This document shows positions 3,664 through 22,269 of a stretch of DNA of 30,762 nucleotides, one piece after another. Positions within the stretch are counted from its first letter, which is position 1; every line of letters starts with the position of its first letter. Origin of the DNA: Stellaceae bacterium. GTDB taxonomy: Bacteria; Pseudomonadota; Alphaproteobacteria; ATCC43930; CGMCC-115725. The notes under the pieces were generated by a model. It saw nothing but the letters and a program-made list of their open reading frames with translations, did no database searches and was not told the DNA's origin. The stretch is taken from contig DATJLY010000139.1 in the NCBI GenBank assembly GCA_035509095.1, positions 1-30,762 of the forward strand, read 5' to 3'. The position numbers were made by a program, and so were the translations under genes.

Positions 3664-4106
3664 TCGCTCGCCTCGGACCCCGCCGTCGTCTCGACCCGAG
3701 TTCCAATGCGGGCTTCACGCTGGTCGAGCTCCTTGTGGTGCTGGCGATCCTCGGCCTTCTGATCGGCATCGCCGTGCCCCAGCTCTTCAAATATTTCTCG
3801 CGGGCGAAGGAGGACGCGGCAAAGATCCAGATCCAGACGATCGCCTCCGGGCTCGATCTTTTCCTTCTCGATGTCGGCCGCTACCCGACCGACCAGGAAG
3901 GATTGAAGGCGTTGGTCGAGCCGCCGCCCAATCTCGCGAACTGGGCCGGCCCCTATGTAAGCCAGGCGAGCATCCTCACCGATCCGTGGGGCCGCGCTTA
4001 CGTCTATCACGTGCCGGGCCGCAATCGCGGCACCGCCTATGACCTCTATACGCTCGGTCCCGATGGCGACGCGACCGGTCCGCCGCCGACATCGGCGTCC
4101 AATTAG
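3660..4106 (+). CDS. gspG: Type II secretion major pseudopilin GspG-like protein
   Basis: Class III prepilin motif G|FTLVELLVVLAILGLL with Glu5; GRYPT..EGL.ALV, W.GPY and DPWG..Y.Y motifs. ATGA overlap with the upstream stop. Confidence 0.88.
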   Translation: MIARLGPRRRLDPSSNAGFTLVELLVVLAILGLLIGIAVPQLFKYFSRAKEDAAKIQIQTIASGLDLFLLDVGRYPTDQEGLKALVEPPPNLANWAGPYVSQASILTDPWGRAYVYHVPGRNRGTAYDLYTLGPDGDATGPPPTSASN

Positions 4107-4118
4107 CGCGGAGCGGCG

Positions 4119-20588: not shown

Positions 20589-20615
20589 CGCTTCCTCCAG
20601 GACACCCCGAAGGGT

Positions 20616-20646
20616 CTTAGCAGGTGAAGGGTTAACGATCCGCCAA
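20616..20646 (-). promoter_or_regulatory. Candidate CtrA-type promoter of the GGDEF gene
   Basis: On the - strand: TTGG-N7-TTAAC, then GCTAAG 10 nt after TTAA. The match is a half-site plus a degenerate half. Confidence 0.35.
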
Positions 20647-21171
20647 CGGCGACGGATCACGCGTCTTGCGCGGAAGCGCGATGGCGTGGCCGGCCTCGGC
20701 CGGACGGGCGAGGCGCCCATGGGATGCGGCCAGCGCGTCGAGCCGCCGCAAGGTTTCCTCGGGCCAGGCCGCGGCGCGGCGGGTCCCGAAATCGATATTC
20801 ATCATGAGAAGCTCGTTGGTGGCGGCGCGCCAGCCCTCGGTTCCGTGATAAAGGACGTGAAAGAAATGCGCCCGCTTGTCGTCGTGCGCGAGAAGCTGGG
20901 TGGTGACGCGCATCGGGTCGCCGGCCCTTAGCTCGCGCAGGAAGGTGGCATGGGTCTCGAGGATGAAGACCATGCCCAGCCGGTGCTCGACATAGGGCCA
21001 GGCAACGCCAAGCTGCTCGCAGAACGTGTCGGTCGCGTGATCGAAGGCGACGATGTAATAGCCGACATTCATGTGGCCGTTGGCGTCGACCCATTCGGGC
21101 CGCACCGACGCGCGATGGCGGTCGAGCGGCGCGGCAAGATCGAGATCCGGCAGCGGATAAGGGAAGGCCAC
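20632..21171 (-). CDS. 4HBT-like hotdog-fold thioesterase
   Basis: VRPEWVDANGHMNVGYY..AFD.ATD, FLRELRAGD and AHDDKRAHFFH. GTG start. Confidence 0.85.
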   Translation of the reverse strand: MAFPYPLPDLDLAAPLDRHRASVRPEWVDANGHMNVGYYIVAFDHATDTFCEQLGVAWPYVEHRLGMVFILETHATFLRELRAGDPMRVTTQLLAHDDKRAHFFHVLYHGTEGWRAATNELLMMNIDFGTRRAAAWPEETLRRLDALAASHGRLARPAEAGHAIALPRKTRDPSPLADR

Positions 21172-21180
21172 GATCGGGAG

Positions 21181-21209
21181 ATCGTGCCCGCCATTTCCCG
21201 TGCGTCAAG
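21181..21209 (-). promoter_or_regulatory. Putative promoter of the thioesterase gene
   Basis: On the - strand: CTTGAC (21209-21204), 17 nt, CACGAT (21186-21181), immediately after the sRNA terminator. It would give a near-leaderless mRNA. Confidence 0.4.
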
Positions 21210-21216
21210 CGCGGGC

Positions 21217-21244
21217 AAAAAAATGGGCCGCACGAGGCGGCCCA
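21217..21244 (-). terminator. Rho-independent terminator of the sRNA (possibly also of the amidase transcript)
   Basis: 8-bp stem TGGGCCGC/GCGGCCCA, 5-nt loop, seven T on the - strand. Confidence 0.9.
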
Positions 21245-21304
21245 AGTTTTGGGAGGAAAAGCCCGAAAGATCGCGGTAGAGGCCGGGGGAGGCCCATGTA
21301 CCGC
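21217..21304 (-). ncRNA. suhB/alpha-r8 (MmgR-like) small RNA
   Basis: GCGGUA-CAU-G-GGCC-UCCCCC-GGCC-UC-UACCGC hairpin, then a single-stranded UUUUCCUCCC, then UGGGCCGC-CUCGU-GCGGCCCA-U7 terminator. This matches the recalled suhB/MmgR UUUCCUCCC-plus-terminator architecture. The 5' end is inferred from the -10 box. Confidence 0.8.
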
Positions 21305-21310
21305 GCGATG

Positions 21311-21343
21311 CTTATAGGGCTTCACCCCTCAAGAAATGGTTAA
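21311..21343 (-). promoter_or_regulatory. Candidate CtrA box and -10 element of the sRNA promoter
   Basis: On the - strand: TTAACCATTTCTTGA (TTAA-N7-TTGA, containing TTAACCAT) at 21343-21329, then TATAAG at 21316-21311. No conventional -35 is present. Confidence 0.55.
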
Positions 21344-21348
21344 GAGGC

Positions 21349-22152
21349 TCAGACACGCGCGCCGCCATTGAAAAAATCGTCGACCGACCGCGTGAGACCG
21401 ACCGCGAGCTTTCGCCGATAAGACGAAAGCTGCAGCAGCGATTCTTCCTGGCGATTGGAAAGGGCGCCGATCTCGACGAGTGCCGACGGAATATCCGGCG
21501 CTTTCAGCACCGCGAACCCGGCCGAGCGGTGGCTGTTTTGCAGCATCGTGACGCGGCGGCTCAGCTCGCTCACGAGATCGCGCGCCAGCCGGATCGATTC
21601 GTTGTTGGTCTCGCGCTGCGCGAGGTCGAGCAGGATGTTGGCGACTTCGGGCGCGTGATGCGACAGATCGACGCCGGCGACGAGATCGGCCTGATTCTCG
21701 CGGGCGGCGATCAAGGCGGCTTCGCGGTCCGAGGCTTGCTCGGACAGCGTGAAGACGGTGGCGCCGCGAAACCGCTCGTCCGGCAGCGCGTCGGCGTGGA
21801 TCGACAGGAAGAGATCGGCATTTGCCGCCCGCGCCCGCGCAACCCGGTCGGCAAGCGGAATGAACTCGTCTTCGTCCCGGGTGAGCCTTACCCGAAACCG
21901 CCCGGTTCCCTCGAGCTCGCGCGCAAGCTCGAGCGCGGTCGCGAGCGCGATGTCCTTCTCGAACACGCCGCTGGCGCCGATGCAGCCGGGATCGATGCCG
22001 CCATGGCCGGGATCGAGCATGATCAGGCGCTGCGGCAACTGCAGACGCTTTGCCTGCGCCCAGGGTGCCGCCAGCATCGTGGCGGCGGCGCTCAAGGCGC
22101 CAAGAAACCGACGCCGATTCAGGAGATTAAACTGCACGGCTTGTTTCTCCAC
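21349..22152 (-). CDS. N-acetylmuramoyl-L-alanine amidase (Amidase_3) with Tat signal, no AMIN domain
   Basis: NRRRFL twin-arginine signal ending AQA; DPGHGG, EK, SIHAD and VEIG Zn/catalytic motifs. GTG 22152 has a GGGGGAG SD (GTG 22137 is an alternative). Confidence 0.9.
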   Translation of the reverse strand: MEKQAVQFNLLNRRRFLGALSAAATMLAAPWAQAKRLQLPQRLIMLDPGHGGIDPGCIGASGVFEKDIALATALELARELEGTGRFRVRLTRDEDEFIPLADRVARARAANADLFLSIHADALPDERFRGATVFTLSEQASDREAALIAARENQADLVAGVDLSHHAPEVANILLDLAQRETNNESIRLARDLVSELSRRVTMLQNSHRSAGFAVLKAPDIPSALVEIGALSNRQEESLLQLSSYRRKLAVGLTRSVDDFFNGGARV

Positions 22153-22204
22153 ATTTAGTACTCCCCCGCCGAACCCCCACAATATCTTGATTCAAGCGGG
22201 ATTT

Positions 22205-22233
22205 ACTATATGTGGAGCTTTAGGAAAAGTCCA
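22205..22233 (-). promoter_or_regulatory. Putative sigma70 promoter of the amidase gene
   Basis: On the - strand: TGGACT (22233-22228), 17 nt, TATAGT (22210-22205), in an AT-rich intergenic stretch. Confidence 0.5.
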
Positions 22234-22269
22234 TATCTTCTTGCACTACATGACTTTTCTCGGCCGTTT

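What the first reader, a model, noticed from the sequence alone, without database searches (positions are those of the whole stretch)
21217..21304. Unannotated suhB/MmgR-like sRNA with two anti-Shine-Dalgarno elements
Seen: an ~88-nt minus-strand unit. Its 5' hairpin (GCGGUA/UACCGC outer stem, GGCC/GGCC inner stem) starts exactly 6 nt after a TATAAG -10 box. It presents CCUCCCCC in the loop, has a second unpaired UUUUCCUCCC, and ends in an 8-bp stem with U7. Established: suhB/alpha-r8 sRNAs (MmgR of Sinorhizobium, SuhB of Sphingopyxis) use the UUUCCUCCC anti-SD motif to repress target translation. Inference: the additional C-rich loop, reminiscent of cuckoo-family CCUCCUCCC loops, makes this a two-seed variant that could pair with two mRNAs or two sites.
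Basis: partly seen in the sequence, partly recalled or inferred. Interest (0 to 1): 0.8.

Follow-up and report, generated by a model that had tools for sequence, protein, structure and literature searches.

The report
Amidase-linked alpha-r8 (suhB/MmgR) small RNA
This is a real but ordinary member of a known family of small regulatory RNAs that block ribosome-binding sites. It is one of four copies in a soil or wetland alphaproteobacterium, and its proposed "second seed" loop is not a conserved feature.

Summary
On the minus strand, 21304-21217 carries a 5' hairpin, an unpaired UUUUCCUCCC and an 8-bp terminator with U7. TATAAG lies 6 nt upstream.

Rfam's suhB/MmgR model (RF00519) matches 21290-21210 at 42.9 bits, just above its 41-bit cut-off. 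It is one of four such copies in this 81%-complete Stellaceae MAG.

About 70 species of the family carry the same gene. In 62 of 70 it lies just downstream of the same Tat-exported cell-wall amidase gene. The anti-Shine-Dalgarno core, the terminator, a covarying 5' hairpin and a promoter at fixed spacing are all conserved.

So it is an independently transcribed alpha-r8 "sibling" sRNA. It most likely acts like SisA, SuhB and MmgR, by Hfq-assisted pairing of the 10-mer with ribosome-binding sites.

The two-seed idea is only weakly supported:
- The 5' hairpin is common to alpha-r8 copies in these lineages.
- Its loop is C-rich in some clades (UCCCCC here) but UCG, UCU, UAU, UUCG or UCCG in close relatives.
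- No cuckoo-type match was found.

The promoter has no -35 box.

No transcript ends could be checked. This is a new member of a known kind.

The parts
21329..21343 (-). Conserved promoter element TTAACCATTTCTTGA (TTAA-N7-TTGA, holding the octamer TTAACCAT). It occupies the -35 region, with its 5' T at -39 from the predicted start. It is a candidate CtrA-type response-regulator site.
   Evidence: TTAA-N7-TTNA is present in 64 of 69 unique orthologous promoters. In 60 of 69 its 5' T lies 37-39 nt before the hairpin start. No sigma-70 -35/-10 pair was found. The Caulobacter ctrA P2 full CtrA motif lies at -39 (PMC4287350).
21311..21316 (-). -10 box TATAAG
   Evidence: A TAnnnn box sits at the same place in the orthologs: T 78% and A 88% at its first two positions. 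Strain variants in other wetland runs keep TATAAG (loose ends).
21304..21304 (-). Predicted transcription start (G, 7 nt after the last base of the -10 box)
   Evidence: Inferred from promoter geometry and from the first paired base of the conserved hairpin. No 5'-end data exist.
21273..21304 (-). 5' hairpin: outer stem GCGGUA/UACCGC, inner stem GGGCC/GGCCU, apical loop UCCCCC at 21285-21290
   Evidence: MFE fold. The outer stem covaries in 62 orthologs: 5 of 6 pairs change on both sides, and 93.6% of cells are paired in a sequence-only alignment. A strain variant changes G21294 to A together with C21281 to U and keeps the loop.
21261..21272 (-). Linker GAUCUUUCGGGC, a degraded version of the family's weak hairpin (GUCC-UUC-GGGC in orthologs)
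   Evidence: Alignment A1. This copy differs from the otherwise invariant AAGUCCUUCGGGC. Rfam forces a GCCU/GGGC pairing with a 15-nt loop, which conflicts with the better-supported 5' hairpin.
21251..21260 (-). Anti-Shine-Dalgarno seed UUUUCCUCCC (family 10-mer UUUCCUCCCU; here followed by AAAAC instead of UGAAC)
   Evidence: Invariant across orthologs (part of that invariance comes from the search pattern). Shared by all four copies in this genome. Unpaired in the ensemble. It is the experimentally validated seed in SisA (PMC12559287).
21217..21244 (-). Rho-independent terminator: 8-bp G+C-rich stem, loop CUCGU, then U7 at 21223-21217
   Evidence: Terminator scan. The helix is 98.7% paired, and 4 pairs change on both sides in orthologs.
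21349..22182 (-). Upstream neighbour: N-acetylmuramoyl-L-alanine amidase with a twin-arginine signal (NRRRFLGALSAA...AQA). The likely start is GTG at 22152, after the SD GGGGGAG.
   Evidence: Pfam Amidase_3, 1.2e-45. Translation. An ortholog lies upstream on the same strand in 62 of 70 loci.

Best explanation
The region encodes an RNA of about 88 nt (21304 to about 21217, minus strand). It is one of at least four 'sibling' copies of the alpha-r8 / suhB / MmgR family in this Stellaceae genome.

It has its own promoter directly after the stop codon of a Tat-exported cell-wall amidase gene. It ends at a strong intrinsic terminator.

Its working part is the family's conserved single-stranded 10-mer, here UUUUCCUCCC. 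By analogy with SisA of Caulobacter and SuhB of Sphingopyxis, this pairs with Shine-Dalgarno regions of target mRNAs with the help of Hfq and represses their translation. This step is inferred.

The 5' hairpin is a conserved structural module whose sequence is free to vary. It most likely protects the 5' end and folds the RNA so that the seed stays open. Its C-rich loop is a lineage-specific feature of uncertain use.

The promoter lacks a -35 box. It carries a strongly conserved TTAACCAT / TTAA-N7-TTGA element at -39, so transcription is probably activated by CtrA or a similar OmpR-type regulator. My odds for CtrA are about 50%.
For: Family membership:
- RF00519 matches at 42.9 bits against a cut-off of 41.
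- The genome holds four copies. 36 of 41 related genomes hold 1 to 8 matches each.

Orthology:
- 70 loci in Stellaceae and related MAGs share the core, the terminator and the promoter.
- The amidase lies upstream on the same strand in 62 of 70. The downstream thioesterase is there only in this genome.

Structure:
- The fold has z = -4.4.
- The outer stem and the terminator covary.
- A natural strain variant carries a compensatory change in the inner stem.

Own promoter:
- The -10-like box and the TTAA-N7-TTNA box keep a fixed distance to the hairpin start.
- By contrast, the end of the amidase match lies 81 to 484 nt before the conserved core.

Mechanism by precedent:
- The 10-mer was shown to be the seed of SisA by compensatory mutation, and Hfq was needed (PMC12559287).
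- hfq is present in 9 of 9 same-genus genomes.

CtrA lead:
- CtrA scores above 400 bits in 9 of 9 genus relatives and 17 of 18 family relatives.
- Their ctrA genes carry full TTAA-N7-TTAAC boxes.
- The Caulobacter ctrA P2 box lies at -39.

Weak sign of expression: 8 soil, peat and rhizosphere metatranscriptome runs hold 2 of 5 sampled words of the ortholog in L035.
Against: - No transcript ends, abundance or Hfq binding could be tested.
- The Rfam score is marginal.
- This copy is the most divergent ortholog. Its weak hairpin is degraded and AAAAC replaces UGAAC.
- hfq and ctrA were not found in this 81%-complete MAG.
- The second half-site is TTGA, TTCA or TTTA in 68 of 69 unique promoters and TTAA in only one. 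The regulator could therefore be another protein.
- Target prediction gave no discriminating list.
Confidence: 0.8

Rival explanations
1. Two-seed regulator. The apical loop UCCCCC of the 5' hairpin is a second functional pairing site. It would be UCCC/CCCC-type, as in CcnA Loop A or the Gram-positive C-rich sRNAs. It would let the RNA bind two mRNAs or two sites.
For: - The loop is fully exposed.
- It is kept as (U/A)CCCC(C) in five genus members while the stem changes (GCAGC/GCUGC, GCGGC/GCUGC, GGGCC/GGCCU).
- A strain variant has a compensatory stem change with the loop unchanged.
- NCCCCC loops recur on unrelated stems in a second clade (L079, L082, L100, L109, L124, L149).
- Loops are 50% C, against 34% in terminator loops.
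- The canonical sibling often has a GCCC tetraloop.
- CcnA shows that a CCCC loop under a CtrA-box promoter can be a seed (PMC8959179).
Against: - The loop is UCG, UCU or UAU in three species of the same genus. Elsewhere it is UUCG, UCCG, UGC, GCCUA and others. It is therefore dispensable for the ortholog group.
- Six loop bases give a short contact.
- The best local match is the amidase SD GGGGGAG. Relatives with the same loop do not share it; their SD is UUGGAGCG.
- ctrA leaders of relatives have no GGGG.
- Counts across related species are not independent.
Confidence: 0.25
2. The RNA has no promoter of its own. It is cut out of the 3' UTR of the amidase mRNA, as a 3'-UTR-derived sRNA.
For: - It has the same orientation as the amidase in 62 of 70 loci, and lies directly after it.
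- No canonical sigma-70 promoter was found.
Against: - A conserved TAnnnn box and a conserved TTAA-N7-TTNA box sit at a fixed distance from the hairpin start.
- The end of the amidase match lies 81 to 484 nt before the conserved core.
- Eight loci show no amidase upstream, one of them near a contig end.
- The first base of the covarying hairpin falls where a start is expected.
Confidence: 0.1
3. It is not a trans-acting RNA. It is either merely the amidase terminator plus chance hairpins, or a cis-acting leader or attenuator for the downstream thioesterase.
For: - A terminator directly after a gene is expected anyway.
- The thioesterase start lies 46 nt after the U-tract.
Against: - The Rfam match is above its cut-off.
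- The invariant 37-nt core and the covarying hairpin occur in about 70 species.
- The thioesterase follows in only 1 of 70 loci.
Confidence: 0.03

Closest known systems
SisA-D of Caulobacter crescentus (alpha-r8 siblings; PMC12559287)
   Same: - Several dispersed copies per genome, each with its own promoter.
- A single-stranded UUUCCUCCCU after a weak hairpin.
- A Rho-independent terminator.
- An anti-SD seed, shown there to repress many mRNAs with Hfq.
   Different: - Here the copy is tied to an amidase gene, not to the FGase gene that marks the canonical copy.
- It carries a long 5' hairpin.
- Its promoter carries a conserved TTAA-N7-TTGA box, whereas no shared promoter motif was seen for sisA-D.
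- No CrfA-like sponge was looked for.
MmgR of Sinorhizobium meliloti / SuhB of Sphingopyxis granuli (Rfam RF00519)
   Same: - Same Rfam family and same 10-mer.
- An Hfq-dependent trans-acting repressor: PHB control for MmgR, thnR and stress control for SuhB.
   Different: - MmgR is a single 77-nt copy under NtrC/AniA control.
- This RNA is about 88 nt and one of four copies.
- It has a different neighbourhood and a different promoter type.
- Its weak hairpin is degraded.
CcnA of Caulobacter crescentus (PMC8959179)
   Same: - A CtrA box in the promoter.
- An exposed CCCC loop, which in CcnA pairs with GGGG in the ctrA and gcrA leaders.
   Different: - There is no sequence or Rfam relationship.
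- CcnA is 182 nt and lies at the replication origin.
- ctrA leaders of this genus show no GGGG.
- This is a functional analogy only.
Cuckoo / CcsR-type RNAs (CCUCCUCCC loops)
   Same: C-rich, anti-SD-like sequence shown in a hairpin loop.
   Different: - The loop here is UCCCCC, not CCUCCUCCC.
- It is a single hairpin, not tandem repeats.
- No Rfam family other than suhB matched beyond noise.

Membership tests
alpha-r8 / suhB / MmgR (Rfam RF00519) | Covariance-model score at or above the curated gathering score (41 bits) | tested here: met
   42.9 bits, E = 8.3e-6 for the window. The margin is small. Same-genus orthologs score 37-48.5 bits.
alpha-r8 / suhB / MmgR (Rfam RF00519) | Single-stranded 10-mer UUUCCUCCCU | tested here: met
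   UUUCCUCCC is present (21259-21251), followed by A instead of U, so 9 of 10 match. Unpaired probability is 0.7-0.9 for most of it.
alpha-r8 / suhB / MmgR (Rfam RF00519) | Weak hairpin directly upstream of the 10-mer | tested here: inconclusive
   Orthologs have GUCC-UUC-GGGC. This copy reads AUCU-UUC-GGGC, which allows only U-G, C-G and U-G pairs. Rfam's alternative pairing clashes with the 5' hairpin.
alpha-r8 / suhB / MmgR (Rfam RF00519) | Rho-independent terminator at the 3' end | tested here: met
   An 8-bp stem followed by U7. It covaries in orthologs.
alpha-r8 / suhB / MmgR (Rfam RF00519) | Alphaproteobacterial host; the canonical copy lies next to an N-formylglutamate amidohydrolase gene | tested here: not met
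   The host requirement is met: relatives are titled Stellaceae or Alphaproteobacteria. The synteny is not. The neighbour is Amidase_3, and no FGase lies within 1.5 kb of the other three copies. The published description applies this synteny only to the canonical copy, and extra siblings lie elsewhere. It therefore does not exclude membership.
alpha-r8 / suhB / MmgR (Rfam RF00519) | Hfq-dependent trans-acting repression of mRNAs | not testable with these tools
   hfq was found in 9 of 9 same-genus genomes but not in this 81%-complete MAG. There are no binding or expression data.
Cuckoo / CcsR C-rich-loop RNAs | CCUCCUCCC in hairpin loops, usually in repeated hairpins | tested here: not met
   The loop is UCCCCC. 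There is no CCUCCUCCC in 21217-21304. Apart from suhB, the Rfam E-value scan of 21100-21450 gave only sub-threshold noise.
CtrA-activated promoters | TTAA-N7-TTAA(C) or TTAACCAT overlapping the -35 region, with the 5' base near -39 | tested here: inconclusive
   TTAACCAT is exact at 21343-21336. The full site reads TTAA-N7-TTGA, so 7 of 8 match. Its 5' T lies at -39 from the predicted start, as in Caulobacter ctrA P2. The start itself is only predicted, and the second half-site reads TTAA in only 1 of 69 unique orthologous promoters.
CtrA-activated promoters | CtrA present and binding the site | not testable with these tools
   CtrA scores above 400 bits in 9 of 9 genus relatives and 17 of 18 family relatives. 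None was found in this MAG, where the best hits are CopR- and KdpE-like. Binding is untested.

The most novel reading that the evidence does not exclude
The amidase-linked sibling would be a cell-cycle-timed alpha-r8 RNA. CtrA would switch it on from the conserved TTAACCAT / TTAA-N7-TTGA box next to a septal Tat-amidase gene. In this sub-clade its exposed UCCCCC loop would act as a second, CcnA-like seed beside the anti-SD 10-mer. One small RNA would then couple division timing to translational control through two different contacts.
Probability: 0.12. Interest if true: 0.65.

Novelty: new member of a known kind. Interest (0 to 1): 0.33.

Why it matters
The result adds a well-defined ortholog group to the alpha-r8 family. 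The group spans about 70 soil and wetland Stellaceae species. It has fixed synteny with a cell-wall amidase gene and a promoter type not described for this family.

If the promoter box is a CtrA site, this sibling would link a global anti-SD regulator to the cell cycle. That would give a concrete reason why bacteria keep several near-identical sRNA siblings: the same seed under different timing.

The C-rich bias of the 5'-hairpin loops across siblings is a cheap, testable lead for a second contact surface.

Otherwise this is a routine annotation gain.

Tried and rejected
- **Sigma-70 promoter scan.** No hits in 20600-22000. TTGAGG lies only 10 nt from TATAAG, so it cannot be a -35 box.
- **Amidase mRNA as target of the loop.** In this genome the amidase SD region CGGGGGAG (22168-22161) is a perfect 8-nt complement of CUCCCCCG. 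But G001, G005 and G008 keep the C-rich loop and have the SD UUGGAGCG. I treat the match as coincidence.
- **CcnA-like targeting of ctrA.** ctrA leaders of three same-genus genomes have no GGGG.
- **Genome-wide duplex prediction.** I tested the seed region against 2906 SD-plus-start sites. Many sites scored -25 to -28 kcal/mol, topped by a LivF-like ABC ATPase on C461. There was no clear break, so the result was not used.
- **Regulon test for the box.** Nine further sites in the own genome have the architecture TTAA-N7-TTNA-N10-13-TAnnnn. They precede clpX, three histidine kinases, an RR-EAL protein, a pentapeptide protein, an acyl-CoA synthetase and a PLP enzyme. This is suggestive of signalling but not decisive.
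- **FGase synteny.** No FGase lies near the other three copies.
- **Expression.** No RNA run holds the window.
- **Alternative seed-presenting helix.** UUCGGG/CCUGAA appears in the minimum-free-energy fold of the ortholog in L035. It lies in invariant sequence, so it can be neither supported nor excluded.
- **Papers.** MmgR J Bacteriol 2017 (PMC5370414) is not held.

Full report
**What is in the sequence**

I read the minus strand. The stop codon of an upstream ORF lies at 21351-21349. After it come these elements:
- TTAACCATTTCTTGA at 21343-21329.
- TATAAG at 21316-21311.
- Six bases, then a hairpin that starts at G21304. Its outer stem is GCGGUA/UACCGC, its inner stem is GGGCC/GGCCU, and its loop is UCCCCC (21290-21285).
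- A short linker.
- UUUUCCUCCC at 21260-21251.
- An 8-bp G+C-rich stem-loop at 21244-21224, followed by seven U at 21223-21217.

RNAfold gives exactly this picture at -39.4 kcal/mol. The z-score against 200 dinucleotide shuffles is -4.4, and none of them folds as well. In the ensemble the six loop bases and most of the seed are unpaired, with p about 0.9.

Only UCCCCC is in the loop. The preceding CC belongs to the stem.

**Family**

Rfam's suhB model (RF00519, "Makes More Granules Regulator RNA") is the only family above its gathering score in the whole window. It matches 21290-21210 on the minus strand at 42.9 bits against a cut-off of 41, with E = 8e-6.

A permissive scan of 21100-21450 adds only noise at about 15-17 bits: RyhB, SorY, anti-hemB and others. 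Nothing of the cuckoo type appears.

It forces a GCCU/GGGC pairing with a 15-nt insertion, so the 5' hairpin lies outside what Rfam models.

**Copy number and host**

The genome is a MAG of 544 contigs, 81% complete. It holds four RF00519 matches above the cut-off, and this one ranks third. Of 41 related genomes, 36 have matches above the cut-off, typically 2 to 5 each.

Titles of related public contigs name Stellaceae, Rhodospirillales and Alphaproteobacteria MAGs from soil. The window itself recurs in wetland metagenomes.

Multi-copy "sibling" alpha-r8 RNAs with unrelated promoters are already described. SisA-D of Caulobacter are the example, and the canonical copy there sits beside an FGase gene (PMC12559287).

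**Orthologs**

A DNA search across the family and one exact-pattern scan of 185,579 species genomes gave 70 loci with the same unit.
- In 62 of 70 an ortholog of the upstream gene lies on the same strand. The end of that match falls 81-484 nt before the conserved core.
- That gene is an Amidase_3 N-acetylmuramoyl-L-alanine amidase with a twin-arginine signal.
- The downstream 4HBT thioesterase follows only in this genome. The unit is therefore not a leader for it.

Across orthologs the stretch AAGUCCUUCGGGCUUUUCCUCCCUGAACUUGGGCCGC and the terminator are almost invariant. Part of that invariance was imposed by my search pattern. However, the BLAST-derived loci show it as well.

This genome's copy is the most divergent. 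It reads GAUCUUUCGGGC for AAGUCCUUCGGGC and AAAAC for UGAAC. This explains its low Rfam score and weakens the family's "weak hairpin".

**The 5' hairpin is real but not special**

Almost every ortholog folds into a hairpin that starts a few bases after the -10-like box and ends just before AAG-UCC.

In a sequence-only MAFFT alignment of 62 loci, the six outer pairs are 93.6% paired. Five of the six change on both sides (for example G-C to A-U and U-A to C-G or G-C). Sliding the partner by 1-3 columns drops pairing to 31-52%.

Contigs from independent wetland runs add a natural experiment. One strain variant changes G21294 to A and C21281 to U on the RNA strand. These two bases pair in the inner stem, and the loop stays UCCCCC. 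This rests on one contig at low depth, with indels nearby.

The region is therefore under selection as RNA. This places the transcript's 5' end upstream of it.

The other siblings also have a 5' hairpin ahead of the Rfam model start. So do the best-scoring copies in neighbouring families, which have ordinary CTTGAA-N17-CATATT promoters.

**The C-rich loop**

Within the genus, the loop is (U/A)CCCC(C) in ours, G001, G005, G006 and G008, on stems that differ. It is UCG in G004, UCU in G009 and UAU in G007. In other genera it is UUCG, UCCG, UGC, GCCUA and others.

A second clade again shows NCCCCC on unrelated stems: L079, L082, L100, L109, L124 and L149.

Over 61 unique hairpins:
- The apical loops are 50% C (133 of 267). 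Terminator loops are 34% C, and the whole hairpins are 33% C.
- CCCC sits at the apex in 16 of 61, against 2 of 59 terminator loops.
- The canonical sibling often has a GCCC tetraloop on covarying stems.

There is thus a real tendency towards C-rich loops. It is compatible with a lineage-specific contact, and CcnA's CCCC Loop A is a precedent (PMC8959179). But the loop is not a conserved part of this RNA, and the species counts are not independent.

I tested two concrete targets.
- The amidase's own SD region (CGGGGGAG, 22168-22161) is a perfect complement of CUCCCCCG in this genome. Relatives with the same loop have UUGGAGCG instead.
- ctrA leaders in the genus lack GGGG.

I put the two-seed reading at about 25%.

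**Promoter**

No sigma-70 -35/-10 pair exists. Instead, 64 of 69 unique orthologous promoters carry TTAA-N7-TTNA. The 5' T lies 37-39 nt before the hairpin start in 60 of 69.

Further conserved bases give the consensus TTAAC-c-ATTT-n-TTgAc, followed 10-11 nt later by a TAnnnn box. I anchored this alignment on the motif, which inflates the conservation of the anchor itself but not its fixed position.

In this genome the octamer TTAACCAT is exact. The 5' T lies at -39 from the predicted start G21304.

In Caulobacter, CtrA recognises TTAA-N7-TTAA and TTAACCAT, and activating sites overlap the -35 region (PMC6180460). The full site of ctrA P2 lies at -39 (PMC4287350).

CtrA itself scores above 400 bits, against a cut-off of 350, in 9 of 9 same-genus and 17 of 18 same-family genomes. 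The ctrA genes of those relatives carry two full TTAA-N7-TTAAC boxes.

Three points weigh against the CtrA reading:
- ctrA was not found in this incomplete MAG. The best response regulators there are CopR- and KdpE-like.
- The second half-site reads TTAA in only 1 of 69 unique promoters.
- Nine similarly built sites elsewhere in the genome precede clpX, kinases, an RR-EAL protein and metabolic genes. This is suggestive only.

My comparative data agree with that note and extend it, but binding is untested.

**Mechanism**

Shown here:
- Family membership by covariance model.
- Conservation of the seed, hairpin, terminator and promoter geometry.
- Seed accessibility in silico.

Inferred from established work on the family:
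- The 10-mer pairs with ribosome-binding sites, and Hfq assists. SisA was tested by compensatory mutations and Hfq dependence. MmgR and SuhB are described.
- hfq is present in 9 of 9 same-genus genomes, though not in this MAG.

Targets in this organism are unknown. My duplex scan did not discriminate.

Expression could not be checked directly. Eight soil, peat and rhizosphere metatranscriptome runs hold 2 of 5 sampled words of an ortholog.

**Verdict**

This is a genuine sRNA gene, but an additional member of a well-known family.

The new points are modest:
- A distinct amidase-linked ortholog group spread over about 70 Stellaceae species.
- A conserved CtrA-box-like promoter in place of a -35 box.
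- A C-rich bias in the 5'-hairpin loops.

The headline "two anti-SD elements" is not a conserved property.

Noticed in passing
L071 (G006:C28, about 91071-91144) and L073; own-genome copy at G000:C18:5074-5152 (L004): Another sibling group really does carry two tandem seeds. In G006 it reads GGUUUCCUCCC-GUGUG-UUUCCUCCCUGAAC. The own-genome copy has a decayed first unit, GGUUCUCCC-GUGUGCGUG-UUUCCUCCC.
   Followed up: no
L014, L016, L018, L022, L023, L025, L029, L030, L032 (5' of the RF00519 match): The best-scoring (canonical) alpha-r8 copy in several genera has a 5' hairpin with a GCCC tetraloop. The loop is kept on stems that covary. The promoter is an ordinary CTTGNN-N17-CATATT.
   Followed up: partly
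window 22161-22168 (-): The amidase's Shine-Dalgarno region CGGGGGAG lies 8 nt before the GTG at 22152. It is a perfect 8-nt complement of CUCCCCCG in the sRNA's 5' hairpin. Relatives with the same loop do not share it.
   Followed up: yes
window 22229-22238 (-) and the same place in about 55 orthologous loci: A strongly conserved motif, (C/A)AGATATGGAC/A, lies upstream of the amidase gene across the family. A TATAGT-like box follows. It is probably the amidase promoter or an operator.
   Followed up: no
G000:C228:23900-23950 (+) and G000:C496 (-), about 4065-4115: Two further own-genome promoters share the TTAAC-N6-TT(G/C)A(G/C)-N10-11-TAnnnn architecture. One is upstream of clpX. The other is upstream of a 1224-aa MHYT-PAS hybrid histidine kinase.
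   Followed up: partly
L159-L161 (ctrA of G004, G003, G007), -80 and about -170 to -205 from the start codon: ctrA of same-genus species has two full TTAA-N7-TTAA(C/G/A) boxes upstream, which suggests autoregulation. The sister family f2 (7 genomes) shows no CtrA at all but keeps alpha-r8 copies.
   Followed up: partly
window 21381-21404 (-): A terminator-like hairpin plus T6 lies inside the last 60 nt of the amidase coding sequence. It is probably a chance match.
   Followed up: no
L002 (G000:C397:8935-12005): Another sibling lies between a dihydropteroate synthase gene and a Peptidase_M23 (LytM-type) gene. Two of the four siblings therefore sit beside cell-wall hydrolase-related genes.
   Followed up: no
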